Under the pieces are notes generated by a model. That model ran no database searches and was not told where the DNA came from. It saw only the letters and a list, made by a program, of their open reading frames with translations. Positions 3,546 through 62,394 of a stretch of DNA of 64,000 bases are shown here, piece after piece. This DNA is from Eledone cirrhosa (lineage: Eukaryota). The stretch spans positions 290,470,001-290,534,000 of the forward strand of contig OZ024743.1 in NCBI GenBank assembly GCA_964016885.1. Direction: 5' to 3'. Numbering within the stretch: the stretch's first letter is position 1; every line of letters starts with the position of its first letter. Made by a program: the position numbers and the translations under genes.

Positions 3546-3546
<1 letters not shown>
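1..3546 (+). mobile_element. R4/Dong-clade non-LTR retrotransposon (family Dong-1), near full length, disrupted ORF; 5' end lies outside the window
   Basis: ORF pieces 21-3402 give RT motifs (KSPGKDKI, NYRPITCL, WIDYKK, GIFQGDSLSPLLF, HLFYMDDLKLF), a CCHC finger (CRVCKKQPETIDHIISMC) and a restriction-like endonuclease (NRPDII..LIDMSVP..KLSKY). The 3' UTR ends directly in (TAA)n at 3547. Confidence 0.93.

Positions 3547-3577
<31 letters not shown>
3547..3577. repeat. (TAA)n linker between Dong-1 tail and Tx1-A tail
   Basis: Pure TAA tract with an element 3' end on each side. Confidence 0.97.
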
Positions 3578-3578
<1 letters not shown>

Positions 3579-9399: not shown

Positions 9400-9456
9400 A
9401 ATAATAATAATATTAATAATAATAATACTAATAATAATATTAACAATAATAATAAT
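9400..9456. repeat. Imperfect (AAT)n linker between Tx1-A 5' end and Tx1-B tail
   Basis: Read directly from the sequence. Confidence 0.95.
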
Positions 9457-10698: not shown

Positions 10699-11837
10699 AT
10701 GCCGTGGCTAATGATGCGCAGACATGCGTTGAGGCTGCGACATCTCCAGCTATTCTGGCTCAACGGTGAACAGGTGTGGTCGCCGTTTATCAAACGGGCC
10801 TTTCCGCAGCTCATTTCTTTGACTGAGCTGCAGTCCTGGGTCAAGAATAGACCGAGACTGGGTGACTGGCACCTGGAATGTTGCCAGGCACTCAATTCCC
10901 TCTACCAAGCGGGCAATGCGATCAGTGGAACTTCCACTCTCGAGTTCTATAGAGGATTAGTGGTGGGCAAGTGCGATGACGCACTCGGAGAAGCTTTGAG
11001 CCTCGACGAAGTCGAACTGACCAGTCTGTACCGGAGAAATTTTGAGCCGGGGACGATGGACAATTCCAGAAATCCCTCGCTTGGCAGTGCTACCGGGGGG
11101 ACACTGCCGGTTCGGGATAATCTCTACAGACACGGAAGTGCTGTCAGACGGACCTGCCAAAGTATGCGCACAGAACTACGAAACAGTTCTGCACCCACTT
11201 GTCCAATGTCCATGCATTACTGACTTGTGGAGTTATGTCGAACAGCTTCTGTCGCGTGTGGATCGAATCCGGCTATCGGCCGAGTCCATAGTGAAGATCG
11301 ATCCACCGCCTTTCTTAGGTCAGGAAGAGCAGGAAATTTTCCTCTGTCTGGTGGCAGTTATATGGTGGACCGGGTTAAAAGGACTGAAGACAGGCACTTT
11401 TCTCTTCGGCCAATCCCTCATCAACTACTTCAAGTTTCACCTGGAAAGGAGGGTGAGGGTGGAGAGAGAAGTGCTGCCCTCCAGTACATTTGCTAAAAGG
11501 TGGGTGAATGTGGCGAGAATGTCTCGTGTGAATGGCCCTACTCTGACCATGCGCCTATAGGCTAGCTAACTTGAGGAGAGGGGTGCTCTCCCTGGGTGCC
11601 CTAGAAACGCAGGGTGGTTCAGGATTGGTGGGGTACGAGTCACCCCAGGGTCGTACACCCCCTATCGGTGAATTTATTTTGTTAAATTTATGCATAGTTT
11701 ATTTTATATTTTTATATTTTCATTGTTAAATTAGTCTTGCCATTGTGCACATTTACTCGACCTTATTGTAATCCCCCACTGTCCCTGTCTTTGTATTGTC
11801 CCCTATATGTCGGCCCTTGTGGCTAATAAATGAAATC
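10697..11837 (+). mobile_element. Tx1-clade subfamily C, 5'-truncated
   Basis: MPWLMMRRHALRLRHLQLFWLNGEQVW through GPTLTMRL; closely matches about 52420-53574; ends AATAAATGAAATC(ATT)n. Confidence 0.9.
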
Positions 11838-11865
11838 ATTATTATTATTATTATTATTATAGAAG

Positions 11866-12049
11866 GGCAGTGGATTGGCAGTATCGGTAGAGGGTCGGAC
11901 GCCATGCTTTCCAGCATAGTTACGTCCCTTTACAGTCTGAGTTCAAATCCCGCCGAGGTTGACTTTGCCTTTCATCCTTACGGGGTCGATAAAATAAAGT
12001 ACCAGCAATGCACTGGGTAATTGCTGGCCTTGTGCCTAAAGTAGAAACA
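11866..12049 (+). mobile_element. tRNA-derived SINE with (ATT)n tail
   Basis: A-box-like TGGCAGTATCGG, B box GAGTTCAAATCC, central GCCTTTCATCCTTACGGGGTCGATAAAATAAAGTACCAG; several copies in the window. Confidence 0.9.
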
Positions 12050-12077
12050 ATTATTATTATTATTATTATTATTATTA

Positions 12078-12915
12078 CAGTTGCATTTATCTTGCTTTAT
12101 GTTCATACGAGTTATCACCAAGTCACAACCAGTGACCTCAAGAGACAACAAGGTCCGCCATGTTCAAGAAAGAACATACACTACCACACATGCATCTGTA
12201 GTGTTTAGACTTGTGATGTACTTATATTGACAGAATCTTCCTTAGTATATGGGCAGTTCCCATTAGTACTACCTTTTGTATTTCTCCTATACGCTGGTTT
12301 CCTGGGATTTTCGATAAGTAATCATTAGACCCCTTAGGTATCATTCCCAGAGCGCCTACAACCACTGGTATTGTTTTAGTTCTCAATTTCCACATTTTTC
12401 CAATTTCTATCTCCAGGTCCTTATACTTGCTCAACTTTTCAAATGTTTTTATAGATACATTCTTGTCTATTGGAACAGACATATCAATTAGCCGGCATAC
12501 CCTCTTTTTAAAGTCCTTCAATATTATATCAGGTCTATTTGCATCTATTTTTCGGTCTGTTTGGATGCTAAAGTTCCACAAGATTGAGATGTGATCTTTT
12601 TCAAGTATGGGAGGTGGTTGATGCTCCCACCAATTCTTTTGATGGGGCAGGTCAAAATGCTTACACATTATCCAATGTATGTATTGTGCAGCTCTGCCAT
12701 GCCTGTTTAGGTATTCGGTTGGAGCTATAGGACTGCACATTGAAATTATATGGTCAATGGTCTCTGGTTGTTTTTTGCATACACGGCATAATGGGCTGCA
12801 TCCATTTTTTATTATGTTGGCTTGGTAATTTTTTGTTGGCAGACACTGATCTTGTGCTGATATAATCAGTCCTCCAGTCTCCGATTTCAGTCCAGAGGAT
12901 GCCAACCACTGATGG

Positions 12916-12916
<1 letters not shown>
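12078..12916 (-). mobile_element. Dong-1, 5'-truncated (zinc finger, RLE and 3' UTR)
   Basis: ORF 12222-12905 is nearly identical to 2656-3402; TTA tracts on both sides. Confidence 0.93.
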
Positions 12917-12957
<41 letters not shown>

Positions 12958-14527
12958 AATAATAATAGTTGTTGTTTTTGTTGTTATTAGGACGTGAAAG
13001 AAGAGGATTGAGAATAAGAAAGAAAACACAATGTACTTGCAAATGATGAAAGCGACAGGCGCATGTTAGATAAACTTCGAATCAACTGGAGTACTACCTT
13101 TCATTCAATGAGATAATTCAGTAATCTAAATATCAATGTTTAGTCAGCTACGCCAAACAGCAGGGATTTATGACAATCGAAATCCTGAAGCATATGCGGG
13201 AATGTACTGGAGAAAGATTGCCGTGTAATTGTTAAACAGATTTTCTACAATAAGAATGTCATAAAACAATGTGTGTCATTGTTTATTTAGAATATCAAAT
13301 GGATTGAGCTATAGAACTTTATGTACAGATTTCACAATGGCCATGTTTGGAAATAAGAAATAATATCCTAAATTGGTGAAAAGTTATGAATGGGTATTAC
13401 AAATATCGATATGGTGTAAATATCTTTCTTGTTGACAGTTGATCTGCAAATACCCTTTGTGATTCGTTTAATACAAATGTCCGTGACTGTATCTGAAAGC
13501 TTAAATCCTAATGGAGTTTGTAGAAACAGATCCACAGTAATCTGCCCATATGATTGTGTAATATACCAACTTGATCAATAAGCATGATATATAGATAAGT
13601 CAATGATAAATGCTATCTGACTCTTCCTCTTGAGATAAATGAAAAGTATCATGATGAGAAATACACGATTCAAAATGAAATGAATATTGTTAATGAAAAG
13701 ACCGGGCGAGTATTACGTTCTGAAGGAATTTATTCGATTCAGATCAAGTATGTCAACGGCAGACAATGTTGGTCTTTAGTATTTCGTGGTATATTACAAC
13801 TTGACAGTATCAGGAATAAAGGCATGAATACAAAATTGATGAATAGAAGAACACAGTTCTTAAATGAAAACGGAACTGTCAGAATGATGTCAGTTAAACT
13901 TTAGAGTGCCTTCGATTTATTGGTTACGTATTATTGAACTTGACCGTTTATATTTGTCATAAACAGAATCGTAAAACACGTGAAAGAAAAATATAATAGA
14001 ACTGCGGTTTATAGAAGAGGGATTTTATATGTTACATGACATTTAATATAGCTACAGGTTTCAAGAATATATGAAGACGAAAATATAATTAATAACCCTT
14101 TACCAATATATTTGAACATAGGAGATAAAGATATTTTACATATTTCAAATATATTAACTCTATATTAAAAACCTGCATGTACTATTTGAATTTAAAAATG
14201 GATATATAAAACATATTCTCTTATATAGTAAATTCAAATATATTTTCACGTTTAGAGAGCCATGCTTTGAATATAATCGCATATGCTTATATAGAAAAAC
14301 GTGTTTTTATTTTATTTATATAGTTCTTCATGCAGTAGCATTCTGTACGATTTTTGTATTTTGGCTTTATTATATTTCCTCTTAGTCTCCCGTGTTATTA
14401 GCACAGTCTTCGTGTTTTAGATTCTTAATGTTAGTTTTTGTTGGTTGTATTGTGGTTGTTATTTGTTTTATGATAATATATGCTTACTTTTACGTGCTGT
14501 TATATACAAATTGCTGATATTATTGTT

Positions 14528-26388: not shown

Positions 26389-26407
26389 TACATATATATA
26401 TATATAT

Positions 26408-26607
26408 AGGAAAAGTGTCACAACCCCGACGGAATAGTTCAAGCCGTTTCGACAGCTATTTCTGTACTCATATATTCATAACTGACAGTTCATAGTTGAC
26501 GAAACGGCTTGATCTCTGCTGTTGGGATTCTGACTCTTTTCCTATTCGACCACTCTACTACCCAAAGTATCGTGTACTCTGATTCCTTACCACACTTCCT
26601 TTGTTAT
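26408..26607 (+). mobile_element. Short TA-flanked element: inverted arm, spacer, arm, tail
   Basis: Imperfect inverted repeat at about 26408-26460 / 26492-26544, then the family tail ending TTCCTTACCACACTTCCTTTGTTA. Confidence 0.7.
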
Positions 26608-26611
26608 ATAA

Positions 26612-26650
<39 letters not shown>

Positions 26651-28502: not shown

Positions 28503-28728
<226 letters not shown>

Positions 28729-28794
28729 AAAGGGATGAAATCGAAAATGCAACTGAAGTCTTATTTTTTAAAAAATATATATATTTATTTGGTT

Positions 28795-28832
28795 CCTTTA
28801 CCGGTTTCGCAGTTCTTCTGCTTTTCAAAAGG
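28795..28832 (-). ncRNA. Minimal type I hammerhead ribozyme, U3:A8 variant (inverted pseudo-LTR copy)
   Basis: Reverse complement of 32859-32896. Confidence 0.8.
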
Positions 28833-29347
28833 TGAGTTGAGATGGAGGGTCTGTGGTTTTTCTCACATCTGGTTGGTCTCTAAATGTTACTTGTTTTATA
28901 TGGAAAAACTGGCTCGAAAACCAGGTTTTTCGAGAAGTAATTTGATTGGTTTGTCAATAATTATAATAAATTTCGCGCCAGTTCGCGTTACAATAGTTCT
29001 TCAAATAAGAGAGGGGGGGGGGGGGGTTGTCACAGGTTGTTTTTTCATATATGAGTGTTTGAATTTCTTTTTACTTGAAAAAATGAGGCTCACGAAGGCT
29101 TTTTTTTGGTTGGTTATAAATGAAATTTGGCTGTCACGTGAACAAGTTTTCATTACATTTTTGCGCCCTTATTTGGAAAACTATTCTGTAGTCTATAGTG
29201 AATGTTATGACAATGGAGAGATAGTGGTCAAGGAAAAAGGGATTGGGAGAAATGTTCTGGTTCAGTGAATATGGTCAGCTGTCAGAGTTCAGGTGTCAAA
29301 GTTCAGATTTTCTATTGAGACTGAAGATATGTGTTTATTTGTGTGCT

Positions 29348-29380
<33 letters not shown>

Positions 29381-29518
29381 ATGTGTGTATTGGAAGATGA
29401 TTCTATTAGTAGAGATGGGGGAGGGAGTTGTGTGTGTGTGTATATGGGTGTTATGTGTGTGTGTGCGAGTATGTTAGATAGAGAGAATATATATTTTTTG
29501 TGTGTGTGTATATATATA

Positions 29519-31816
29519 GACCAAGGCTACAGGACTCACGACACCCGGTGGCACAAACCGATTTTGAAAAACCGAAAATAATTAACATTTCAAATACAAA
29601 CCTCTCAGCCCAACAAGTAAACATTCTCTCCAAAGGTCTGAAATTCACACCAACACCACAATATCCTAACCCCAACGAGATAAATGACGATATCTCACAC
29701 TTCTGTAGAAAATTACGTCTCACAGAGGAATTCTTTGACAAGGAGAATAACGACGAATCAATTGTACGGAATAAAAGCAGCTACAACCCAACAAAAGGTA
29801 GAAACAGAATTCTGGACAAATTTTGTGACCACATAGCTACCTTCCCATACCATGAACTACCGCAACCTAAACCCAAACCCAACACAAGTCGAAGGGAATG
29901 GGAGATTATCCATGAACTAAAAAACAATCCGGACATTGTAATTAAGGAAGCGGACAAGGGAAGTACTGTTGTCATTATGGAGGCTGAAAAATATAAAAAT
30001 TCTATGTTCTCTCTCTTACAAAATGCTAATTACTATGAAAGAGTAAAAAACTACCAGCAATCAAAAATAATGACCAAATTAAACACACTGATTTATCGAT
30101 ACCAGAAAGACCTAACTAAAAAGGAACGCGATTATTTAACAAATTTTGAATACAAAACCAGCAACATTTACGGACTTCCGAAGATCCACAAATGTAAAAT
30201 AATCAACGATGCCTGTAAACAATCCACCTCAGCCTGCGTGAACACACAATACCCCACAGACCTTAAATTAAGACCAATTGTAGCGGGCCCACAATGTGAA
30301 ACACACAGATTGAGCAACTTTATAGACATACTACTGAAACCAATACTGAAACACATACCAAGCCTTGTAAGAGACGATCTGGACCTCTTAAACCACCTCC
30401 CCAAACATGTCAACAACGACACTATTATTGTGTCTTTCGATGTAGTGAATCTCTACACAACGATCCCACACCAATACGGACTAGAAGCAATAGGATTCTG
30501 GCTAGAGAAATATCCCAATGAGATACCTGACAGAATAGAAAAAAGCTTCATCACCGAGGGATTAAAATTCATCCTACAGAACAACTTTTTTGATTTCGAT
30601 GGCAATACTTACAAGCAAATATCGGGGACTGCGATGGGCACAAAAGCCGCTCCAACTTATGCCAACTTAGTCATGGCATACTTAGAAGTCCAGATATATG
30701 AACAGTCCAAATCAAAATACGGATTGAACTTCCACAAATATTTATCAGAGAATTGGAAACGCTACTTGGATGATTGCCTCATTCTTTGGTCCCACACACT
30801 CGACCAACTGAAGGATTTCAAAAACTTAATAAACGGCATCAATAACCACATCCAATTCACAATGGAATACAGCCAAGATCAACTCCCATTTCTGGACATC
30901 TTATCACAAAAAAAAACACAAATATCGAAACTGACATACACTACAAACCAACAGATTCCAAACAATATCTGCTATTCACCTCCAACCATCCAAAGCACAC
31001 GAAGACGAACATTCCTTTTAACCTAGCAAGAAGAATTTGCACAATTGTCTCCAATTATGAAACGCGAAATAAAAGACTTCAAGAATTAAAGGAAATTCTA
31101 CTTGAGAGAGAGTACCCACTATTACTAATAAATAATGGAATAGAAAGGGCTAAAGCAATAGGCATTGATGAATTACGGAAACAGAAACAAATTCAAGGTA
31201 CGTCCAATATTCTATCATATATCTCAACACACAACCCAAGAAATGCGGAAGCTTACAACACTATTCACAATAACATCCCACTACTAAAACAAAACCCAAG
31301 AATAAAAAAGCCCTTGAAACACACAAAATAATCAAAAGCAAAAGACAACCAAAATCACTGAAAACATTACTCACCAATGCCAAATTACCTACCACAAACC
31401 CACAACCAAGTATCAAAAAATGTGGTCGCTCTAATTGTGGAACCTGCACTCACCTCATTGAAGGCAACACGTATACATTTAAATCAGGACAAAATTTTAC
31501 TGTAAATAATCACTTCACTTGCTCATCAAAAAATCTAATTTATGCCATTAAATGTAAAGGATGCAATGAAGATTATATAGGACAAACTAAACTCACACTC
31601 AGAAACAGAATGACAGTTCATCGCCAACAATTACGAGATCCAACCACGAGACAAATACCACTAAGTGCACATCTAGACATTTGCGCAAGTAATAAGACAC
31701 CCAAATTCCAAGTCTTCCCATTTTACCTTTGCGCTAACAATACAACAGAACAAATGCGAATAAATAAGGAAAATATGTTTATTCAAAAATATAGACCAAC
31801 ATTAAATAAGGTTTAA
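29519..31816 (+). pseudogene. PLE reverse transcriptase plus GIY-YIG endonuclease, 5'-truncated, frameshifted near 30900 and again near 31260
   Basis: LSKGLKF, IKEADKG, YGLPKIHK, LRPIVAG, SFDVVNLYT, GTAMGT, RYLDD; downstream C.R..C.TC, NLIYAIKCKGCNEDYIGQT and KENMFIQKY.P.LN. Confidence 0.92.
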
Positions 31817-32309
31817 TATACATTATGTCAACACCACAATATGACATACACACACACACATAACACCTACTTTAGAAAATAAAAACCCGAACTAAATAAA
31901 CCTTAAACATACGTTTGCACTGGCAATACAACAGCAAACACGAAAAAGTCAGGAAAATATGTTCATTCAAAAATATTCCTACTAAAGGAATCATTTTCCT
32001 ACACACACACATACACACACACAATATATATATATATATATATATATATTCTCTTCATCTTAACATGCTAACCATACTCCCACACACATAACACCCATAC
32101 ACACACATAAAAACCCCCACACCTACAACACCCTCCCCGTTTCTACTAATAGAACCACTTTCCTACACACATATATATATACACACACACAAAAAATATA
32201 TATTCTCTCTATCTAACATACTCGCACACACACACATAACACCCATATACACACACACACAACTCCCTCCCCCATCTCTACTAATAGAATCATCTTCCAA
32301 TACACACAT

Positions 32310-32342
<33 letters not shown>

Positions 32343-32858
32343 AGCACACAAATAAACACATATCTTCAGTCTCAATAGAAAATCTGAACTTTGACACCTG
32401 AACTCTGACAGCTGGCCATATTCACTGAACCAGAACATTTCACCCAATCCCTTTTCCCTTGACCACTATCTCTCCATTGTCATAACATTCACTATAGACT
32501 ACAGAATAGTTTTCCAAATAAGGGCGCAAAAATGTAATGAAAACTTGTTCACGTGACAGCCAAATTTCATTTATAACCAACCAAAAAAAAGCCTTCGTGA
32601 GCCTCATTTTTTCAAGTAAAAAGAAATTCAAACACTCATATATGAAAAAACAACCTGTGACAACCCCCCCCCCCCCCCTCTCTTATTTGAAGAACTATTG
32701 TAACGCGAACTGGCGCGAAATTTATTATAATTATTGACAAACCAATCAAATTACTTCTCGAAAAACCTGGTTTTCGAGCCAGTTTTTCCATATAAAACAA
32801 GTAACATTTAGAGACCAACCAGATGTGAGAAAAACCACAGACCCTCCATCTCAACTCA

Positions 32859-32896
32859 CCTTTTGAAAAGCAGAAGAACTGCGAAACCGGTAAAGG
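32859..32896 (+). ncRNA. Minimal type I hammerhead ribozyme, U3:A8 variant
   Basis: cctt-TTGAAAA-gcag aagaa ctgc-GAAA-c cg g-TA-aagg: stem I CCTT/AAGG, stem II GCAG/CTGC, palindromic stem III ACCGGT, GUA cleavage site. Confidence 0.8.
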
Positions 32897-33029
32897 AACC
32901 AAATAAATATATATACTTTAAAAAAAATAAGACTTCTGTTGCATTTTCGATTTCATCCCTTTTTCTTTATACTTCCACTCGTGTAGGAGACCTCGGTAAT
33001 TTTTCATTTTGTAAAAAAAAAACCTCACT

Positions 33030-33093
<64 letters not shown>

Positions 33094-33568
33094 GACGGTT
33101 AAGTATTTCTTCTTGATTTTATTTTAAATTAAGATTGTTTTGCCTTTTCCCCAACTTACACAATGTCTGAGGATAAAGTTTTTCTTCTTGATTTGTTTTG
33201 AATTAAGATTGTATTACCTTTCCCTCATCTTACACTAAAAAATCTTTCATCTCGATGGTATAGTCACTTATATGTCTGAATTATTGTTGGCATTTTGCTT
33301 ACATTAATTTCCCTATTTTCATTTATATATTTATACTCGGACTTTTCCTAGAGTGCTACTTAATATTTGTGACTAATCCTAGTTTAAAAAAAAAAAAAAA
33401 AAAAAACTGCCATAATATTGCTTATGCTGAACTTCATATTTTTGTTGAATTTTTCAGAATGTTTTGACTGTTGTTTCTTGTAAACAGCTTTTTCGTATCA
33501 TACCGCCAGCACTAGCTTGTGTCCACGTTTCTTTTGTTATTTCATTTCTACACGCTGTCGCTTGCCTG

Positions 33569-33704
33569 GTCCAGAAATATCCGTCGAAACGGCTTGAGCT
33601 CTGCCGTCGGGGTCACACATTTTCCTATTACTCAATCTACTACCCTAAGTATTGAGTAATCTGGTGCGTTATGGTCCATGTGGTTCCTTACCACAACTCC
33701 TTCG

Positions 33705-33706
<2 letters not shown>
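33569..33706 (+). mobile_element. 3' end (arm plus tail) of the short TA-flanked family
   Basis: GTCCAGAAATATCCGTCGAAACGGCTTGAGCTCTGCCGTCGGGGTC through TTCCTTACCACAACTCCTTCGTTA, then (TA)n. Confidence 0.72.
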
Positions 33707-33741
<35 letters not shown>

Positions 33742-33829
33742 GATAATAATAATAATGATAATAATAACAAAAATAATATTAATTTCAATAAAAATAAACA
33801 GAATGGAGTTAATTTAGTACTTTCTATTT

Positions 33830-33904
33830 ATTTTATTATACGTATTTCGAAGATGAATGGCTTATGTATAACATAAATCAAAACATGTTCTCTTCAGATA
33901 AAAT
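33830..33904 (-). ncRNA. Type I hammerhead ribozyme
   Basis: attttat-CTGAAGA-gaacatg..catcttc-GAAA-t acgt a-TA-ataaaat: 7-bp stem I, extended stem II, palindromic loop 3. Confidence 0.75.
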
Positions 33905-34250
33905 CCAGAGGAGATGGAGATATCATGTGATATAACAGGCGGTTATATCATGTTATATCAGGTGGCCAGCAAGCATAACATAACTAAAGCAACTTTCTGT
34001 TTTGTTTATTATTATTATAACAATACTCTGGATAAACATATATTGTTGAGTGCTTTACATCTGTTATTTAAAGGTCAGGTTATTCTAAATCAACTAACTC
34101 TCTCTAATTGAACAAATATATATATATATATATCTGGTTTCGTTGACAAATATATAAATATGCCCAGACACGCAGATATATTGCCCTTGGTATGACAGTG
34201 TGGTTTTAGCTCAAAGTAGGATAACTAGTATACTATATAGCCGTTATAAC

Positions 34251-34322
<72 letters not shown>

Positions 34323-34399
34323 ATATTGTTTATATATATATATATATATTTATATATACGATATTAAATAAATGGAAATTATATTTATAAAACCATATT

Positions 34400-34465
34400 T
34401 ATTTCATTATATATATTTCAGGGATATCATATTAACAATATGTTATGCCTTCTTCAGACAAAATA
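34400..34465 (-). ncRNA. Type I hammerhead ribozyme
   Basis: tattttgt-CTGAAGA-aggcataacata..tatgatatccct-GAAA-t atat a-TA-atgaaata: 8-bp stem I with two G-U pairs. Confidence 0.75.
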
Positions 34466-34501
34466 CAATATAGACAGTCTTATAAATAAATAGATTTCAT
34501 A

Positions 34502-34536
<35 letters not shown>

Positions 34537-34630
34537 CTCTTTTACTCTTTTACCTGTTTCAGCCATCCGGCTGAGGCCATTATATATCAATAATATTAAT
34601 AAATGGAAACTATCTTTATAAAACCACATT

Positions 34631-34692
34631 TATTTTATTACATATATTTCAATGGTACCAACATTTTTGGTACGCGCTCATCAGATAAAATA
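34631..34692 (-). ncRNA. Type I hammerhead ribozyme
   Basis: tattttat-CTGATGA-gcgcgtaccaa aaatg ttggtaccatt-GAAA-t atat g-TA-ataaaata. Confidence 0.75.
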
Positions 34693-34777
34693 CAAAAGTT
34701 GTTTTACATATAGTGACATATCCAAAACAGGATCTTATCGTTTTAAGTTCAGTTTGAATAGTGTAAAACGACTTTTG

Positions 34778-34839
34778 TATTTTATCTGATGAGGGCGTAC
34801 CAAAAATGTTGGTACCCTTGAAATAAATATAATAAAATA
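34778..34839 (+). ncRNA. Type I hammerhead ribozyme
   Basis: tattttat-CTGATGA-gggcgtaccaa aaatg ttggtaccctt-GAAA-t aaat a-TA-ataaaata: perfect 8-bp stem I. Confidence 0.8.
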
Positions 34840-34993
34840 AATATGGTTTTATAAAGATAGCTTCCATTTATTAAATATTATTGATATTATACTACAGAAG
34901 AAATACTGAAGATGCTTCTAATCTGTTATAAATAAATTTGTTGAATAACCAACACATTAAATAACTCTTTGCTTATATATATGTTATATATAT

Positions 34994-35052
<59 letters not shown>

Positions 35053-35772
35053 TATATATCATATATATCATATATATATATCATATATATATATATATAT
35101 ACATATATCATATACATATATATATACATATATCATATACATATATATGCAAAAGTTTTATTTAAAATTGTTGGGTTACAACAAGTAAATATTTTAACAT
35201 ATATATATATATATATATAATATCCATTCATACATCAATATTCTTTAATAATCAGTGCATTCTGTCAAGACAACATGGTTCCTTTTAAATTCTGAACCAT
35301 TGAAATTCGATTAACTTTATTTTTCTTAATTGATCTATGTATTTCTCTCTCACAAATCAGAATTTATAAATTTACGAATTCTTATATCGTATATACATTT
35401 TAGAAACAAGTAAATTCAAATTATTTTCCTAATTCAAATATATGAATCTTGTTATGAAACTTTTAAAATACATTTTGTTTCCTACTGAATGTATTTTTTA
35501 AATTATATTTTAGACAAAATTTTATCATTTCGTGTTCACTCATGATATAAATAACAATCTATTTCTATGATGACATGTTACAAACATTCTCAAAAAGTTT
35601 AATAACATATTTAATTGTTAATTTCTGATATAAATCAATATGTAAAAGTAAGTAAAACATTCATATACATTTAAATTCATAAATCTTTAAAACGTATTTC
35701 TAGCTACAATTTCCAGTTTGTATGTTTGTTCATACTAGATCTATTTTTGTTATTTTTTTAATCTTTTCGTAG

Positions 35773-35911
35773 ATACTTAATTATCCGATGCATGTGGGTT
35801 CCCATATTTGACAAACAACGAAGACGTGTTGTAACCGAGGAAGAAACCAAGACTCTTGCATTGCCACAGAAGAAAAAAAGTACATTGTGGTATCGAGTTA
35901 TCCCTAGATAG
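35773..35911 (+). CDS. Candidate last coding exon of an unidentified host gene
   Basis: Long pyrimidine tract and TTTTCGTAG acceptor, then a rise in GC and an open frame YLIIRCMWVPIFDKQRRRVVTEEETKTLALPQKKKSTLWYRVIPR*, followed by repeat-free UTR-like DNA. Protein not recognised. Confidence 0.45.
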
Positions 35912-37127
35912 GAAATCTGTAACAGCGTGATTTCCGTTAAGAAAACCTACTAATAGGAATTCGTTTCGAACGGCAACTGAAGTAATTATATAGCCAGATA
36001 AAAATCAATGTTTCCGTAATGTAGAAACCGATTGATCAAATATCACGCATTCTGTTCAAATAAGGATAACACGTTTTAGATTAGAGCTTTGTAACTGAAT
36101 GACTATAACGTTTTAACATATTCAGTAGGAACAACATTGTGTATGATTTCTTTTTAGAGAGTTCAAAGCTGGTGGATTGTAAAAAAAGGAATGTAACTTC
36201 AAACCAGTAATTAGTCTTGAATGCTTGCAACAGGATATACTCTTCAAAATCACTCCGTAGATCAAGGTTCAGTTGTTAAGCAATGAGGTGCTTAAGTGTA
36301 CCACCCTATTTATGTCTTCCACTCTACGTTTGTATACGCTAGAGTCAGCGTAAAACATTCCACCATCTGGCATATTGCACCTTGCCTCCTTTTATTCCGG
36401 ATAATGCGGTAATTAATATACGTTACGCAGAACTGTTAATATCATGTTTATGCCTACTTAAAAATAAATGTTTTGTTTGCATATATTCGACATCTTCGTT
36501 CTTATACTTATAAGTGTTATGTGTCAATGAAATGTAGTGTATCTTTATGATTTGTTTCCAATTCACATCGATGTGAACTGAGCTTTTTATATTTGTGGTT
36601 CCATGAATGCATTCGATCTTATGCTCCTTACACATATATATGCTTGACTCAGTAATGTATATATTAAAAAAAAAACAAATATGCAAAATGTATTGTTCTT
36701 TCTTGCGAAGTCTTACACGATTCCTATTAATGTGTCTATTATTACAGCATGTGTAATTTGGTAGCATTGCAGCAAAATTGGTAAGACGTCACTTTGTAAA
36801 ATATATTGCATTTTTGTGTTAACTGAGCTCCAATCTCGGCGGACGCGAGTATGTCTTTTAATACCTAAGAATGAACCAAGTAATATGTACCCAATTCCCT
36901 ATGTCAAATAATTTGATTGTATCCTGCTGTAATATGTGTTGGCTTTTGCTGACCTCAGCAATGTGTATGAGTAATGGTAAAAGGGATGGGGGATGAACAG
37001 TTTGAACCGTAGTAGATCGAGAGAGAAATGTAAGTTGTTACGTCACTTTATATTGTTACGTCACTTTATATTCAAATGCAGTTACATTTCTATCACTCCA
37101 TCAGTGTTTCTAGAGGTGTGCCCGATG

Positions 37128-42327: not shown

Positions 42328-42358
<31 letters not shown>

Positions 42359-42375
42359 TATATATATATATATAC

Positions 42376-42580
42376 AAATAGGAAAAAGTATGACCCCGAC
42401 GGCAGAGCTCAAGCCGTATCGACGGCTATTTCTGTCCAGAAATAGCCGTCGATACGGCTTGAGCTCTGCCGTCGGGGTCATACTTTTTCCTATTTTCCTA
42501 TTTCCCACTCGACTACCCTAAGTATTGCGTACTCTGGTGCGTTATGGTCCATCTGGTTCCTTACCACAATTCCTTTGTTA
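42376..42580 (+). mobile_element. Short TA-flanked element with a perfect 59-bp fold-back plus tail
   Basis: 42376-42434 and 42437-42495 are exact reverse complements with a 2-nt loop; the family tail follows. Confidence 0.85.
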
Positions 42581-42859
42581 TATATACAAATATATATTTA
42601 TATATCTATCGTAACAATAAAATAGATGAATACATATTAATAATAGTGATCATACTACTCAATAATCGCCACCTGGAAATATAATTGTGCACCCATCAAA
42701 GATTACATTATATATATATATTTAATATTCTGCGTGAACATAAAAAAGGCATAAGAAAAGGGATAGTAAACGTAATTTATTAGAAGCGTAAATCACAATT
42801 CTTAGTGCCTAGACAGATGCTTAGAGTCAGGAGAAACAATGCTTATTGCCATGTTCCAT

Positions 42860-48914: not shown

Positions 48915-51900
48915 TCGGGAAGCAGCATCTGCAAGCCTTCTGCCCTCAGCGCAAACATGCAGGGGGTTGCAAACCTCCTTTGTTGCCAACGCCAGTGTCA
49001 GCACGGAAAGCTGCACCACCACCACCACCAAAACCAACATCAACAAAAACACGGACACCAACATCAAAAGCAGCCGGTTCACCACCAACACCAAAACCAA
49101 TCCAAGGGAAAAACGAGGAAAGATCCCCCCCCCCCCAATTATACACATAGACAAAACAATAAACGAACACACAGACACAGAGAGACTCACAGCCACAGAC
49201 CCTTTGTCTTCCAGTAGCGAAGATGAAGGGAAACCCAAAAGTGCAAAAAAACAGACAAAACTCACAAAAAAAAAAGCCCCAACAAAACATAAAAACATAC
49301 ACAACAAAAAATACAGACACCACTAACGCAAACACTTACCCAATAACATCATTACCAACAGCAACATCGACACCGCCTCCACAATCCCCGAAACGCAAAC
49401 AACCTAAACAAACACAAGTACAAATAAACACACAAATACCTGAAATTGCAGACACCACACCTACAACAAACACAGACATACCCGAAACAACACCACCAAA
49501 ACCATCACCCCACAGTCACCAAAACGAAAACATATAAAACCACACCAGCAAAATGTTAAAAACTTCGTGCTTGTCAGAAGGGCCAACGATAAACTGATGG
49601 CCCTCATAGCACGAAGCGAGGACATTCAAACAGAGGGGAAGATTTTTGAAATGAGCACATTTTGCGTGCCAGAAGATTTGCTTCTGGTCCGAATGTCACT
49701 CAATTCGTTCAAAGAAATTCGAGAGAGTTTCCTCGGGACGTGGGAACCTGAATGTGAAACACACATCAATACTTTTAAAGGGGTTCCCAAAATAAACCCC
49801 ACCAACCATGGAGGTCGAACCACCCGACCTTCACAAGACCCCGGGAGGTAAGTAAACCTTCCCTCTCTCTCTTAGCTTACCAATATGGCCATATTAAGAG
49901 TAGGAAGTTTAAATGTTCGCGGCCTGGGGTCACCCTGGAAGCAGGGTCGCCTGCTCAACGACCTCAGGTCGCTGTAAATGGATGTGATTGCAGTCAGCGA
50001 GACCAGAATTTCCGACACGCACGCACTAGCCCCCATTTTCGACAACTATGAGATCTTCGCATCTGTTAGCAGACCGGGAATGGGGGGTGGGGTGGCAGTG
50101 CTGTTTAGGAAAGGACTGGATCTCGAGGTAAGATCAATCTTCCGGGACCCGGACGGTAAGTTGGTGGCCTTGGATGTGAGCAGTAGCGAAAGTGGTGCTT
50201 TTAGACTGCTGGCCGTCTACGCCCCTACAGGGGCCGGACGACCGGACTTCTTTAGGCGCCTGGAGACCTTTCTGGGTACATCTCGCCATTTACTGTTAGC
50301 AGGGGACTTGAATGGTATCTTAGACGCACGCTGGGATTGTGTGGGAATAGCCGATAGGAGCAGGGAGTGCGAAAGCCTCCAGCACCTTCTCAGCCAGTTC
50401 CAACTCTCTGACAGGTATCGACTAGATCTCCCCAATGTGCCAGTATGGACATGTACCAACCGAATGGGGGTAATCTAGATCGTCTATAGACAGGATCTTC
50501 ATTAGGAAAATAGATAGAAATAGTGTGGGATGCCCACTTTTTAAAACGGTCGCCTATTCAGATCACAAATTCGGTCGACCTAGATAAAACGCGTAGGTTA
50601 GGACCGGGTTACTGGAAGCTGAACATGTCATTTCCGGCACGTAAGGCTTACAGGGACCGAGTCAACAATTTAGTTAAGCAAAAGTTGACAGGGGGGCTCA
50701 TCAACATCAGATGGTGGGGGGCTCTCAAAAGAGAGATTAGAGTAACTTCGATAGAGTTCAGCAAAGAACTAGCGTTAGAGAAAAATAGAAATGAGGGGGA
50801 GCTGGTAGATAAGTTAGACGAGGATATTTGTAGTGGCATTGCAACTGACGTGCTAGCGGCGAGAATGGCATTAGACCATTTCTACAATGCGAAACACGAA
50901 GGTTACATTGTCAGAGCTAAGGCGCGTGCGCTGAGAAACGAGGGAACCAAAGCTGTTCCATGGGCCCGCGTGGCAGAGGCGGAGCGTTGTAATAAAACCA
51001 CAATTCGGTCTTTCGCGGACCGAGACGGACACGAGATAAGCGATTCCAAGCAGATGTGTGAGGCCTTTCGCCAGCAATTTGCTCGGTTGTTCGGGGAGAG
51101 TGGCGAGTCAGAGTGATTAGCGGATTTCAGTCCCTACCTTGACGGCTTGCCGCGCATCTCGTCGGTTGACGCTGAGCGCTGCGAAAGACTGATTACTTCA
51201 GCCGAAATTCAGGACGCCCTTGTCGTTTGCATAAGGCGCAAGTCACCGGGTTTGGATGGCCTGCCCTACGAGCTTTACGTAAATATGCCAGACTTGTTCT
51301 CCGAACTCCTCGAAGCACTTTACTGCAACTGGCAGCAGAATGGAAGTATTCCCAGTTCTGTGAGCAGGGGAGTGGTGACGCTGATAAGGAAAGACGAGAA
51401 CAAGAAGAATACATTAGAAAACTTCCTGGCCCGTAACTCTGCTCAACACAGAGTTTAAGATTTTGGCCAAGGTATTAGCAAATAGATTGGCGCTTGTCGT
51501 CGAGGATTTGGTTGTGGAGGCGCAAAATTGCGCAATCCCAGCCAGGTCCATACACGACAATCTCCACCTCAGGCGATACATCATAGAGAGGGTAGGTGTA
51601 AACCTGGCTTCGGTGGGGCACTGATCAATTTAGATCAATCGAAATCATTCGATAGGGTCGACCATCGGTATCTGGAATTTGTCCTCAAAGCAGCTGACTT
51701 CGGCCCTGTCTTCAGAAGCTGGACCGCTGCAATGCACGGCGGCACACGCTCGGTTGTCAAGGTTAATGGCCACATCTCGGAACCATTTCGGCTCTCCCGA
51801 TCGGTCCGTCAAGGGTGCCCTCTCTCTTCCCTTCTGTACGTATTGACTCTCGAACCTTTACTGCGGAAGCTGCAGCTGTTGCAGGGCATACCGCTCGAAC

Positions 51901-53574
51901 CGGGACGTGGAGAGGCGGTGTCGTCTTATTCGGACGACATCACCGTGATGGTGTCGAACACCTCAGAAATCGAGGGGGTCGGCACCTCATTGATGGAATA
52001 TGAAAGGTGGACAGGAGCCAAACTTAACCCGGAAAATCGGTGGGCTTGCAGCTCGGAACCTGGAGAGGCAAGCCCATGCCGTCCAACAGCGTCGTGGGGC
52101 GCTGAACGGATGGACCGGTAAAGTTGCTCGGGGTTTGGTTCGGACCAGACCTCCAGGTGGAAAAAATAGGGACGAGGTAACGAGCAGAGTAGCCAGTCTC
52201 ACCCAAAGATGGACTGGCAGGAAGCTATCACTGAAAGGTCGAGCGGAGGTGGCGAACGCGTACATCGCGTCCGTCATCTACTACCGCCTGACCGTCGTGC
52301 TTTGCCCCCGTCCGCCCCTCGTCAAGTTGGAACGGCTTCTCTTCACATTTTTGTGGAGAGGACAAGTTCCGTTGGTGAGGCGGTCAATCTGCTGCCATCA
52401 CCCTCTACGCGGAGGGCTGGGCATGCCGTGGCTATTGATGCGCAGGCATGCGTTGAGGCTGCGACATCTCCAGCTATTCTGGCTCAACGGTGAACAGGTG
52501 TGGTCGCCGTTTATCAGACGGGCCTTTCCGCAGCTCATTTCTTTGACTGAGCTGCAGTCCTGGGTCAAGAATAGACCGAGACTGGGTGACTGGCACCTGG
52601 AATGTTGCCAGGCACTCACTGCCCTCTACCAAGCGGGCAATGCGATCAGTGGAACTTCCACTCCCAAGTTCTATAGAGGATTAGTGGTGGGCAAGTGCGA
52701 TGACGCACTCGGAGAAGCTTTGAGCCTCGACGAAGTCGAACTGAACAGTCTGTACCGGAGAACTTTTGAGCCGGGGACGATGGACAATTTCCAGAAATCC
52801 CTCGCTTAGCAGTGCTACCGGGGGGCACTGCCGGTTCGGGATAATCTCTACAGACACGGAAGTGCTGTCAGACGGACCTGCCCACTATGCGCACATAACG
52901 ACGAAACAGTTCTGCACGCACTTGTCCAATGTCCGTGCATTACTGACTTGTGGAGTTATGTCGAACAGCTACTGTCGCGTGTGGAACGAATCCTGCTATC
53001 GGCCGAGTCCATAGTGAAGATCGATCCACCGCCATCCTTAGGTCAGGAAGAGCAGGACATTTTCCTCTGTCTGGTGGCAGTTGCGAAAGAGGTTATATGG
53101 TGGATCAGGTTAAAAGGACTGAAGCCAGGCACTTTTCTCTTCGGCCAATCCCTCATCAACTTCTTCAAGTTTCACCTGGAAAGGAGGGTGAGGGTGGAGA
53201 GAGAAGTGCTGCCTTCCAGTACATTTGCTAAAAGGTGGGTGAATGTGGCGAGAATGTCTCGTGTGAATGGGCCTACTCTGACCATGCGCCTATAGGCTAG
53301 CTAACTTGAGGAGAGGGGTTCTCTCCCTGGGTGCCCTCAGAAGCGCAGGGTAGTTCAGGATTGGTGGGGTACGAGTCACCCCAGGGTCGTCCACCCCCTA
53401 TCGGGGAATTTATTTTGTTAAATTTATGCATAGTTTATTTTATATTTTTATATTTTCATTGTTAAATTAGTTTTTGCCATTGTGCACATTTACTCGACCT
53501 TATTGTAATCCCCCACTGTCCCTGTCTTTGTATAGCCCCCTATACGTCGGCCCTTGTGGCTAATAAATGAAATC
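48915..53574 (+). mobile_element. Tx1-C, truncated within ORF1, ORF2 complete but disrupted
   Basis: ORF1 stop at 49851; ORF2 ATG at 49885 (MAILRVGSLNVRGL); APE, RT (SVRQGCPLS, YSDD) and zinc finger; stop at 53295; AATAAA plus (ATT)n. Confidence 0.92.
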
Positions 53575-53596
53575 AGTATTATTATTATTATAGAAG

Positions 53597-53780
53597 GGCG
53601 GTGGATTGGCAGTATCGGTAGAGGGTCGGACACCATGCTTTCCAGCATAGTTACGTCCCTTTACAGTCTGAGTTCAAATCCCGCCGAGGTTGACTTTGCC
53701 TTTCATCCTTACGGGGTCGATAAAATAAAGTACCAGTAATGCACTGGGTAATTGCTGGCCTTGTGCCTAAAGTAGAAACA
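53597..53780 (+). mobile_element. tRNA-derived SINE between ATT tracts
   Basis: Nearly identical to 11866-12049, including the 5' flank TATAGAAG. Confidence 0.92.
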
Positions 53781-53810
53781 ATTATTATTATTGTTATTAT
53801 TATTATTATT

Positions 53811-56800
53811 GGCGACCTACGTAGTAAATCGTATCATCGTGAGCTCCGCAAAGGTTTGTTATTTCCGTTTGTTAAAAATTGACATTTATGGAAAATTTTT
53901 ATTGTTAACTATATATATGAGCACATACAATGTTTTCCGAAAAGGACACCCAAAAAGATTGGGGCCTTGTGCCCAAAAGTTAAACTTTTATGATTATCAA
54001 AAAATTTCTTTGAAAAAAAATGGCTAATTCACCACTGCACCAAGCATCTGAAAGCCTTTCTCACAAATTAACACCTCACACCGAGACCACCATTGTAAAT
54101 GATTATACGTCTTCCAACACAAACAATTTATGCACTAGCAATATTTTAAATTTGTTTCAGGCAGACATTCATTTCCCGCCATTACCAATGACTGCAGGTG
54201 TTAAAGCCGCCGCCACCACCACCACCGCGACAACCCCCACCCGCACCACCACCGCGACAACAGAAACAAAAGGAAAAAATAAATCAACTCGTGATGTCGA
54301 AATATTTTCAACCAAAATGGACTCTCCCAAACCGAACTTCACTGACGTCACCACCACCACAACTGAAACTAAAATTAATAATAACAAAAATAACGATAGC
54401 AACAACAACAGCAATGACATTAAAAAACCACCCTGAGTTTTGCCACAGTAGCAAAACAGTTCGAAGCATTTACGGTAACTCAGGAGGATTTAGAAAATGC
54501 CAAACAAATGGTAAAGAAAGATGGGTACAGGGTCAGCCTCCCCCCCTCCCCCCTAATAAAACGGAGCATCGGCGCCTGTGCACCGTGTCGTATCGAACAA
54601 TAAATGTAAAATCGCGCCGAGTGGAACGGGCATCCGAGTCCCAAATCCAAAAAGCTTTGGGACATGTGTGGGCAAGAAAAACCCACATCAGACGTGGACA
54701 GAAGTATGGAACCGTGGACGTGTTCTTTGAAACACAAGAGGAGGCTAGAGAACACTCCATGGCCCCATTAAAAGTGACGACTTCACACTCGTCCCAAGCT
54801 CTTGTGGCCAGAGACTCGTAAAGATCAGGGTGACCCACGTTCCACCGGCCATCGAAATTCCCTGGCTAATAGCGGCCGTCCTCGCCGGCATCGAAGCCAA
54901 CACAAAGATAATAGCAATAGCAAAAGAAAAGCAGGAGAACTGGTCCGGATCTGGGATGGAGCTCCTGATCGAAGCGGACCAAAAAAGCATTGAGGAGATC
55001 CCAGAGGTAATAGACCTCACTGACGGCAGCCACCTCACCGTAATTGTCGAGGGCAGAAGGCCTAGGTGTGTCGTTTGTGGTGAAGGAACCCACCTAGGGG
55101 CTTTCTGCCCTCAGGCTAAAAGGTTGAGGCCACCTCTCCTACCCACCCCAGTGACACAACCATCAACACCACCAGTAGCAGAGATGGCAGCATCAACTGT
55201 AGCAGCAACAACAGAAGCAACTATAACAGCAACAACCCCAGAAACAGTAGCAAAACCAACACCACCACCACCCAACGCTTAAGAACTAGCACCAGCGGCT
55301 ACACCATCCACCACGCCACAACCAAAACTAACGCCTGTGGAGGATTTTCCACTCCCCGGCCTATCACAACTGGAGACAGATTGTGACGACGAGGAGAGGG
55401 AAACGGTATCAGGAAAAAAAAAAGAGACCAAAAAATAAAAAAATTCTCTTCCTTCCCCCTCCAAAAACAAAATACAGAGGGAAACAAATAAATTATCAAA
55501 CAAAAAAGTTAGGACAGATATGCCACCATCCACACCAGCATCACCAACCCCATCAACCCAAACACCAACACCATCACCATCATTAACCTCAACACCACCA
55601 TCACCTACACCACAAAAGTCACCAAAATGCGAAACAGAAACAAACCCACAACAAACGCACACAAAACAAAACAACCAAAACGATACACACTACACAGCAT
55701 TAAGTTTGAACAACAATGGCGGTGGATTGGCAGTATCGGTAGAGGTTCGGACGCCATGCTTTGACGCATAGAGTTACGGCCCTTGCCATTCTGAGTTCAA
55801 ATCCCGCCGAGGTTAACTTTGCCTTTCATCCTTACGGGGTCGATAAAATAAAGTACCAGTAATGTACTGGGTAATTTTCTGGCCTTGTGCCAATAGTAGA
55901 AACAATTAAGTTTGAACAACAACCAATTATTACACTACATCCAACACAACACCAGCATCACAGAAAAAGACTACACAACAACCCAAAAATTCACACCACC
56001 TCCACACATACAAATCACTCGCATCACACAGAAAACGTACATGACACTAAAACAAAAATTACCCAAAGACATCGGAGACTTCCGACAAGCACACTCCAGA
56101 AGGATTTATAAGGACATCCTTCCTGAGGTGGCCACAAGCAGTTTAAAGGATGGAAAAACCGTCCTTCCCCTACGAGAAGTAAGGTAAGTGGTCTTTCCCA
56201 TCTTTTCCACTCCTTTTCAACATGACCTCACTCAGAATAGGCAGCATAAATGCGCGTGGCTTGGGTCGTCATGGAAGCAGGGCCACCTGCTCAACGACCT
56301 CAGGTCAGTAAACATAGATGTAGTGGCCATCAGCGAGACCAGAATCTTCGAAGCACGGGCCTTCGCACCGATCTTCAGCGGCTACGATGTGTAGCATCTC
56401 CCAGCCGTCCGGGATCGGGAGGTGGAGTTGCTGTGCTTTTTCGGAGAGGTTTGGATATTTCCATACGGGCCATCTTCCTGGATCCAGAAGGTAAGTTGGT
56501 GGTGCTGGACGTGACCAGCGGAGACGGGCAAGCTTTAAGGTTAGTAGCCGTCTATGCCCCGACAGGAACAGGGCGGCCTGATTTCTTCCGGCGTCTGGAG
56601 ACCTTTCTTGGAATGTCCCGCTCTTTAGTGTTAGTGGGCGACTGGAACGGGATCTTAGATGCACGCTGGGATTGTGTGGGATTAGTGGATAGGGAAGGAG
56701 GGTGCAAGAGTCTCACCAACCTGCTCAGGCGTTTTGAACTGTCTGACAGGTACCGAATGGATTTCCCGAATGTACCAATGTGGACTTGGACAAATCGTAT

Positions 56801-59800: not shown

Positions 59801-59881
59801 GCCCATTTTTACCGTCCTGTATTGTCCTGTACTGTCCTTAATGTCTACTTTATGTAGACCCTTGGGGTTAATAAAGAAAAC
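53811..59881 (+). mobile_element. Tx1-A, full length, disrupted, with a nested SINE
   Basis: 5' GGCGACC directly after (ATT)n; ORF1 about 54020-56187; ORF2 56222-59638 (long open stretch to 58226); 3' AATAAAGAAAAC(ATT)n. Confidence 0.94.
55718..55904 (+). mobile_element. SINE inserted in Tx1-A ORF1 with an 18-bp TSD
   Basis: ATTAAGTTTGAACAACAA at 55699-55716 and 55905-55922; the empty site is present in the other Tx1-A copy at about 7526-7543. Confidence 0.95.
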
Positions 59882-59903
59882 ATTATTATTATTATTATTA
59901 TTA

Positions 59904-62362: not shown

Positions 62363-62394
62363 TTATTACTATTATTATTATTATTGTTGTTATT

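What the first reader, a model, noticed from the sequence alone, without database searches (positions are those of the whole stretch)
33830..34839. Four covarying AU-rich hammerhead ribozymes within 1 kb and no ORF
Seen: hammerheads at 33830-33904, 34400-34465 and 34631-34692 (minus) and 34778-34839 (plus). All fit ATTTT(A/G)T-CTGA(A/T)GA-stem II-GAAAT-NNNN-RTA-AT(A/G)AAAT. Stem II has three unrelated sequences yet pairs each time, and loop 3 is palindromic (ACGT, ATAT) in three. Known: type I hammerheads mark PLE pseudo-LTRs and non-LTR retrozymes, which yield circular RNAs. Inference: a minus-strand transcript would be cut into pieces of about 230 and 570 nt with ends that RtcB could ligate. 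This may be an undescribed retrozyme-like family or stacked solo pseudo-LTRs whose proximity permits dimeric cleavage.
Basis: partly seen in the sequence, partly recalled or inferred. Interest (0 to 1): 0.75.

Follow-up and report, generated by a model that had tools for sequence, protein, structure and literature searches.

The report
Stacked ends of Hydra-clade Penelope retroelements
The four ribozyme motifs are the clipped ends of three families of a known, very abundant protein-coding retrotransposon piled into AT microsatellite, not a new circular-RNA element, but the families share a duplicated small RNA hairpin that likely tells their reverse transcriptase where to start.

Summary
The four type I hammerhead motifs are real (0 in 300 shuffles), but they are not a retrozyme. 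Each is the 5'-truncated 3' end (pseudo-LTR) of a Hydra-clade Penelope-like element (PLE). Three families are involved, and each was traced elsewhere in the genome to an RT/GIY-YIG frame with Hydra motifs. HHR3 and HHR4 are one ordinary inverted insertion; HHR1 and HHR2 are separate insertions into (TA)n. The shared 23-nt ribozyme end occurs 40,250 times (control 0). The 231- and 571-nt 'units' are one-off mosaics. No RNA data were available.

The better lead is a by-product. In two families, all 80 of 80 copies that end in (TA)n stop at one of two fixed points. Each point lies just before a copy of a duplicated bulged hairpin (CUC-stem-UN-GAG-YRC). The same hairpin, with unrelated but pairing upper stems, is visible in published coral and sea-cucumber Hydra consensi. 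I did not find it described. It likely positions the two internal RT start sites known for PLEs. A C-C mismatch in stem II is also conserved across families.

The parts
33787..33976 (-). Family A Hydra-PLE end: inverted, 5'-truncated arm stopping at the short terminus
   Evidence: 81-89% to L076, L080, L083, L094; family joins a GIY-YIG frame upstream in 8 of 24 loci
33830..33904 (-). HHR1, type I hammerhead of family A; predicted cut after 33837
33983..34115 (+). Family A forward arm: tail only, hammerhead truncated away; ends in (TA)n
   Evidence: 84-87% to the tails of L076, L080, L083, L094
34026..34053 (+). Decayed copy of the bulged hairpin (CTC...TT-GAG-TGC) in the family A tail
34133..34249 (-). 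Terminal piece of a further hammerhead-bearing repeat family; its hammerhead is not included here
   Evidence: 786 candidates, 40 scored at 93-95%; hammerhead upstream in 4 of 4 loci checked
34351..34503 (-). Family B Hydra-PLE end: solo arm stopping at the short terminus, between (TA)n tracts; young family
   Evidence: 98-100% to 53 matches; 96-98% to the pLTRs of coding copies L125 and L128
34400..34465 (-). HHR2, intact hammerhead of family B; predicted cut after 34408
34536..34581 (.). Fragment of an unrelated repeat that looks like a LINE end
   Evidence: matches L078 and L041, which continue differently; loose ends at 34580 in contigs of X1 and X2
34584..34761 (-). Family C Hydra-PLE end: inverted arm stopping at the short terminus
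34631..34692 (-). HHR3, family C hammerhead with a broken lower stem II; predicted cut after 34639
34762..34975 (+). Family C forward arm with tail of about 88 nt, ending at the long terminus in (TA)n
34778..34839 (+). HHR4, family C hammerhead with a non-palindromic loop 3; predicted cut after 34831
34892..34915 (+). Decayed copy of the bulged hairpin in the family C tail
34974..35148 (.). (TA)n tract. Other tracts at 33706-33739, about 34116-34133, about 34250-34358 and 34499-34534 separate the insertions

Best explanation
The four hammerheads are the truncated 3' ends (pseudo-LTRs) of three families of coding Hydra-clade Penelope-like retrotransposons, each lying in (TA)n microsatellite, and they likely arrived by separate, aborted target-primed reverse transcription events. 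Shown: family identity, the link to RT/GIY-YIG frames, the inverted-arm-plus-tail layout, the (TA)n flanks, two fixed 3' termini about 88-90 nt apart, and a duplicated hairpin just beyond each terminus. Inferred from PLE biology: the GIY-YIG nicks (TA)n; the RT starts inside the element RNA at one of two sites; copying that stops early leaves 130-400-nt ends that keep the ribozyme; each insertion leaves (TA)n on both sides, so later ones pile up. In full-length copies the ribozyme likely cuts tandem transcripts into 3.7-kb units, as a dimer or with help from the element's protein. In this window it is probably a passenger. More tentative: the hairpin positions the RT, and the 5-9 TA-like bases before it pair with the nicked (TA)n primer.
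For: Family C: loci extend 1.25-1.5 kb upstream of the ribozyme into a GIY-YIG end and a broken, near-full RT frame in L048. Family B: a 654-aa open frame in L126 and 618 aa in L128. L128 reads inverted copy, pLTR, ATG, ORF, 1.2-kb 3' UTR, pLTR, with ribozymes 3,745 nt apart. Family A: GIY-YIG upstream in the same sense in 8 of 24 loci, 5 of them with a regex-detectable core. Motifs RWR, DKT, CxCx5C, CxxC and CxH, with no CCHH, match the Hydra definition (PMC8557442 section 11). The shared 23-mer occurs 40,250 times against 0 for the reversed control. In the first 30 of those, 28 have an intact core; among the first 100, 20 of 26 neighbour pairs within 5 kb are divergent, the layout of Fig. 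2 in PMC8557442 (legend read). Termini: 56 of 62 B copies and 24 of 29 C copies end in (TA)n, and all 80 end at one of two sites.
Against: Clade membership rests on motifs and on by-eye comparison with the paper's sequences; no tree was built. Pfam and PDB sequence searches gave no RT hit for the 654-aa frame. The unit (3.7 kb) and tail (about 88 nt) are longer than published (<3 kb; 30-40 nt). No cleavage or expression was measured. Another family's intact ribozyme lies within 1.5 kb in 7 of 55 family-picked loci but in only 1 of 26 unbiased loci, so pile-ups are only modestly enriched and this cluster is denser than most.
Confidence: 0.93

Rival explanations
1. Non-LTR retrozyme: the 231- and 571-nt segments between same-strand ribozymes are non-autonomous units that are cut out, circularised by RtcB and re-inserted.
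For: Three same-strand ribozymes give pieces of retrozyme-like size. Retrozymes are reported to derive from PLE pLTRs (10.64898/2026.07.22.740005; abstract, introduction, methods and passages read).
Against: No tandem array. The units differ from each other and are mosaics of other repeats. No scored candidate besides the window spans the HHR3-HHR2 join (40 scored). Only 1 of 99 adjacent intervals among the first 100 genome matches is same-strand and under 1 kb. All three families are coding.
Confidence: 0.03
2. Accidental ribozyme cassette: the pile-up arose as debris, but a minus-strand transcript is cut by cross-family dimers (HHR2 with HHR3 or HHR1), releasing small RNAs or ending a host transcript.
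For: Stem III is not formed in monomers (pair probability <=0.003). The stem III octamers cross-pair 8 of 8 (HHR2 x HHR3) and 7 of 8 (HHR1 x HHR2). Dimeric activity of PLE ribozymes is published (PMC4209133, passages).
Against: HHR3 has a broken lower stem II. A transcript through both C arms folds into a -212 kcal/mol hairpin that buries HHR3. Published PLE ribozymes cleave weakly or only with the element's protein (PMC11167929). The window copies of A and C have drifted 4-19% from other copies, which gives no sign of selection.
Confidence: 0.08
3. The hammerheads belong to the adjacent PLE at 29518-33032, as a long multi-ribozyme 3' extension.
For: An RT plus GIY-YIG frame lies 2 kb away, and Terminon-type elements carry several ribozymes (recalled).
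Against: That element has GxKF, DKG, CxxCxxC and CCHH (Neptune-like) and its own decayed ribozyme near 32860-32898, and it ends in (TA)n at 33033. It is on the opposite strand to three of the motifs. The family B protein has no tblastn hit in the window.
Confidence: 0.01

Closest known systems
Hydra clade of C-terminal EN+ Penelope-like elements (Craig et al. 2021, PMC8557442), including Hydra-1_Obim
   Same: Single RT-GIY-YIG frame; RWK/RWR, DKT, CxCx5C, CxxC and CxH motifs; no CCHH; sense-strand type I hammerhead near the 3' end; (TA)n targets; 5' truncation, inverted arm, and a tail on one arm.
   Different: Unit 3.7 kb with a 1.2-1.35-kb 3' UTR (published: mostly <3 kb). Tail about 88-90 nt (published for PLEs: 30-40). 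AU-rich ribozyme with a long stem II and an invariant C-C mismatch, absent from the 26 Hydra rows of File S2 (read by eye). [quoted passage not shown] The ribozyme sequence differs from that of Hydra-1_Obim.
PAc, Poseidon PLE of Anolis (Frangieh et al. 2024, PMC11167929)
   Same: Two internal RT start sites downstream of the hammerhead define the tail; AT-rich targets; the uncleaved ribozyme is kept in insertions.
   Different: In PAc the starts lie in an AC-rich stem-loop inside the ORF, at sites not homologous to the target. Here both ends lie in the 5' UTR, each before a copy of a duplicated hairpin, and the adjoining bases are TA-like.
Non-LTR retrozymes (Cervera and de la Pena 2020, PMC7229834)
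   Same: Type I hammerheads, low GC, short spacing.
   Different: Those are non-coding head-to-tail repeats of 150-450 nt expressed as circles. These are mixed, mostly divergent ends of coding elements.

Membership tests
Type I hammerhead ribozyme | CUGANGA, GAAA and NUH joined by three helices, helix I open | tested here: met
   HHR3 has a damaged lower stem II
Type I hammerhead ribozyme | Compensatory variation in helices | tested here: met
   Stem II: 54 of 63 cells paired in 9 family representatives, shuffle mean 40.4, 0 of 2000 shuffles reach it; one representative is a one-base-shifted copy that lowers the count; relatedness not controlled
Type I hammerhead ribozyme | Self-cleavage | not testable with these tools
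   no assay; monomer stem III probability <=0.003
Penelope-like element (EN+) | One frame with RT and C-terminal GIY-YIG | tested here: met
   YRDD and IY..C..YVG motifs in L048, L126 and L128; 71 homologues of similar length; no Pfam or PDB hit
Penelope-like element (EN+) | pLTRs from partial tandems, inverted 5'-truncated copy, tail on one end | tested here: met
   L128 layout; window arms; 11 of 19 family B loci are inverted pairs
Hydra clade | RWK motif, DKT in place of DKG, N-terminal GxKF/Y not conserved | tested here: met
   RWR and DKT in L048 and L128; a GVKF string lies 34 aa before DKT in L126, not at the N-terminal position
Hydra clade | CxCx5C linker, CxxC and CxH around the catalytic E and N, no CCHH | tested here: met
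Hydra clade | Insertion into (TA)n | tested here: met
   80 of 91 B and C copies end in (TA)n
Hydra clade | Generally shorter than 3 kb (descriptive, not diagnostic) | tested here: not met
   unit 3,745 nt in L128
Hydra clade | Phylogenetic placement of the RT | not tested
   labelled reference sequences were seen only in a paper supplement and compared by eye
Non-LTR retrozyme | Head-to-tail tandem repeats of 150-450 nt, each with a hammerhead | tested here: not met
Non-LTR retrozyme | Non-coding, non-autonomous | tested here: not met
   all three families lead into RT/EN frames
Non-LTR retrozyme | Expressed as linear and circular small RNAs | not testable with these tools
   no RNA holder listed

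The most novel reading that the evidence does not exclude
Hydra-clade PLEs across phyla carry a duplicated bulged RNA hairpin (CUC, variable stem, 2-nt U-N bulge, GAG-YRC) that works like a telomerase template-positioning element. The RT binds it and starts 0-9 nt upstream, where a short U/A(G) tract pairs with the nicked (TA)n primer. Two copies give two start sites and hence the PLE tail, and the pairing tract helps explain (TA)n targeting. Young family B offers a near-intact system to test this.
Probability: 0.5. Interest if true: 0.65.

Novelty: new member of a known kind. Interest (0 to 1): 0.38.

Why it matters
The cluster itself is ordinary transposon debris. Two by-products matter. First, this genome holds at least 40,000 copies of one hammerhead lineage that Rfam misses, from a PLE clade described as having few families outside cnidarians, with at least one very young family. 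Second, how a PLE reverse transcriptase, the sister of telomerase RT, chooses its internal start sites is open. A hairpin that is duplicated, sits at a fixed distance from both ends, and keeps its pairing from coral and sea cucumber to this animal gives a direct mutational test.

Tried and rejected
Rfam at gathering and E-value thresholds: no hammerhead model hit, only microsatellite-driven miRNA matches. Naiad clade was my first guess from the C-terminal motif; rejected because the GIY-YIG is C-terminal and canonical ribozymes are present. The adjacent Neptune-like PLE as the source: its proteins gave no tblastn hit to the family C loci, and the family B protein gave none to the window. Pfam and PDB sequence searches with the 654-aa frame were blank. 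Sequencing runs: no RNA holder listed. Contigs of X1 and X2 (one sample) lie on the stretch in thousands of short pieces and none spans it, so they say nothing on expression or on whether the insertions are polymorphic. Earlier findings of the scan: nothing. The family classifier mislabelled B as A; the counts were redone after dropping 16 overlapping or segmentally duplicated loci. The repeat at 34133-34249 could not be tied to a PLE frame within 1.5 kb. Local alignment overshoots the termini into the TA-like spacer, so the exact end base is uncertain by up to 8 nt. The window ORF at 63456-63917 was not scanned against Pfam. No covariance model was built, because motif and pattern searches answered the question.

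Full report
Observation. The four motifs are present as described. A relaxed type I descriptor finds exactly these four in 64 kb, and none in 300 dinucleotide shuffles of 33000-36000. Rfam does not see them. No ORF of 120 aa overlaps them. HHR3 and HHR4 are the arms of one 113-nt, 94% inverted repeat. HHR3 has lost stem II pairs 2 and 3, and HHR4 has lost the loop 3 palindrome. HHR2 is identical to its family.

Each motif is a dispersed repeat. The window lies in a 3.0-Gb genome. The host is not identified. One of the few named homologues of the element protein is from Argonauta at 35% identity, so a cephalopod is a guess. HHR3/4 (family C) gave 1,975 candidates, with the 40 scored at 86-97% apart from the window itself. 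HHR2 (family B) gave 228 candidates at 98-100%. The HHR1 region (family A) gave 1,277 candidates at 73-91%. [quoted passage not shown] Only 2 of the 4 window motifs match it exactly, so 40,250 is a lower bound. Of the first 30 matches, 28 have an intact CUGANGA at the right place. Of 26 neighbour pairs within 5 kb among the first 100 matches, 20 are divergent, 4 same-strand (1 under 1 kb) and 2 convergent.

Each family is the end of a coding PLE. For C, L009, L010 and L015 share 1.25-1.5 kb upstream of the ribozyme. A search with that body led to a GIY-YIG end and to L048, a broken, near-full frame with RWR, DKT, YRDD, CNCx5C, CxxC and CxH. For B, the upstream sequence leads to the same domain in 9 of 20 loci at the expected distance, and to open frames of 654 and 618 aa. 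L128 shows the textbook layout: inverted truncated copy, pLTR, ATG, ORF, 1.2-kb 3' UTR, pLTR, with the two sense ribozymes 3,745 nt apart. For A, 8 of 24 loci carry the GIY-YIG end upstream in the same sense. B and C proteins are 61% identical over 510 aa; B and A are 36-67% identical in pieces. These motifs define the Hydra clade (PMC8557442: sections 6 and 11, passages, and supplement parts 2, 52, 53 plus two searches read). That paper lists one octopus family, Hydra-1_Obim, whose ribozyme differs from these. No tree was built.

Anatomy of the locus. From left to right, separated by (TA)n: a family A insertion (inverted arm with HHR1, then a forward tail); the tail of another hammerhead-bearing repeat; a solo family B arm with HHR2; a fragment that looks like a LINE end; a family C insertion (inverted arm with HHR3, forward arm with HHR4 and tail). 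The RT/GIY-YIG element at 29518-33032 is Neptune-like, has its own decayed ribozyme and is not the source. Other clusters exist. After dropping 12 duplicate loci, 7 of 55 family-picked loci have another family's intact ribozyme within 1.5 kb and 3 have three or more. L014 has four within 1.3 kb, one of them degenerate. Among 26 unbiased loci the counts are 1 and 0, about what one copy per 74 kb predicts. By hand arithmetic, roughly 30,000 uniform insertions would give one or two triple pile-ups within 1 kb per genome; (TA)n targeting and uncounted degenerate copies would raise that. The cluster is dense but needs no special cause.

The retrozyme reading. The predicted pieces are 231 and 571 nt. 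Retrozymes, however, are non-coding tandem repeats (PMC7229834, passages; 10.64898/2026.07.22.740005, first fifth and passages). There is no array here, and none of the 40 scored candidates other than the window covers the HHR3-HHR2 join. In favour of some activity: monomer stem III is unformed (<=0.003), so dimers would be needed, and the octamers cross-pair. Against it: HHR3 is damaged; a read-through of both C arms folds at -212 kcal/mol and buries it; and PLE ribozymes cleave weakly (PMC4209133, passages) or only with the element's protein (PMC11167929, main text read to the start of the assay methods). Expression could not be tested.

By-product 1, stem II. Across 9 representatives, stem II positions 1-3 and 5-8 pair in 54 of 63 cells (shuffle mean 40.4; 0 of 2000 reach it). 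Position 4 is C-C in 8 of 9; the exception is a copy shifted by one inserted base. It is C-C in 27 of 28 unbiased copies. The Hydra ribozymes in File S2 of PMC8557442 have short, fully paired stems II (by eye). The mismatch is likely a tertiary or protein contact (inference).

By-product 2, termini and hairpin. Copies end at two fixed places. Of 62 B copies, 56 end in (TA)n: 32 at the short and 24 at the long terminus. Of 29 C copies, 24 do: 12 and 12. The other 11 are interrupted, run on, or end at the same sites without (TA)n. Full-length copies, where the pLTR runs on into the ORF, show what follows each terminus: 8-9 TA-like bases, then CTC, a short stem, a 2-nt bulge, GAG and YRC. This occurs once after the short terminus and again about 88-90 nt later after the long one, 40-50 nt before the ATG, in B (L128), C (L167-L185) and, with one change, A (L123). 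Of 27 distinct first copies, 22 have an upper stem of 3 bp or more, against a mean of 0.9 and a maximum of 5 when the inner letters are shuffled; the bulge starts with T in 32 of 32. That control ignores common ancestry. Second copies have only 1-2 upper pairs and fold weakly or not at all on their own, which counts against a purely structural reading. Independent support comes from the six consensi in File S7 of PMC8557442, read by eye. The hairpin is clear in 3 of 6: coral Hydra-2_Amil (upper stem TACAC/GTGTA), sea cucumber Hydra-2_Ajap (TGCT/AGCA), and Hydra-1_Ajap, which has two copies about 62 nt apart at its 5' start (TGTCC/GGACA and CTGAC/GTCAG). It is degenerate in Hydra-1_Crog and Hydra-1_Obim, and not seen in Hydra-1_Amil, an incomplete consensus that ends shortly after the ribozyme. 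PMC11167929 showed that a PLE RT starts at two internal sites that match the tail ends, and called those sites non-homologous to the target. The hairpin is therefore a candidate positioning element, and the TA-like tract a candidate priming segment. Both are inferred. The main text of PMC8557442 has no 'hairpin' or 'stem-loop', and searches listed no paper that describes it, judged from listings and abstracts. Supplementary figures of these papers, the supplements of PMC11167929, Repbase notes and subscription journals were not seen.

Verdict. The finding is a real but ordinary pile-up of Hydra-clade PLE ends (confidence 0.93): new families of a known kind. Interest is 0.38, carried by the hairpin and the copy number rather than by the cluster.

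Noticed in passing
window 28726-33032: Neptune-like PLE (GxKF, DKG, CxxCxxC, CCHH; frameshifted RT plus GIY-YIG at 29518-31816) with an 800-nt, 98.9% inverted copy of its 3' end and a decayed minimal hammerhead near 32860-32898, mirrored near 28793-28831.
   Followed up: partly
window 33569-33705; also 28604-28680, about 26400-26640, 42333-42609: Ends of a further (TA)n-targeting repeat that carries the 3' half of a GC-rich hammerhead (GAAAC, stem III, GUC) and shows the same short-arm and tail-arm inversion; frequent in other loci.
   Followed up: partly
window 34133-34249; L131-L135: Tail of another abundant repeat (786 candidates) with an intact hammerhead upstream; no PLE frame found within 1.5 kb.
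   Followed up: partly
window 35148-35200: Minus-strand tail fragment of a family-B-like element between (TA)n tracts.
   Followed up: partly
L014:1278-2704: A second locus with four AU-rich hammerheads within 1.3 kb: an inverted C pair (one degenerate) and an inverted B pair.
   Followed up: yes
L125-L129: Family B is young: many ends are 99-100% identical and frames of 618-654 aa stay open; L125 is a 4.6-kb, 99.2% palindrome of two truncated copies.
   Followed up: partly
L013, L024, L037, L041, L061, L077, L094, L099, L116: Further hammerhead subfamilies with different stems II, nearly all with the C-C mismatch at position 4.
   Followed up: partly
window 789-12983 and 49978-62403: Several broken APE-RT (LINE-type) elements with zf-RVT domains; the window is largely retroelement debris.
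   Followed up: no
L002-L006, L016-L018: Near-identical 3-kb contexts at 0.12-0.3-Mb spacing on contig C4 suggest a large segmental or tandem duplication.
   Followed up: no
L120 (reverse strand, 4627-6800): Frames that resemble a Helitron Rep/helicase (label recalled, not tested) next to a family A copy.
   Followed up: no
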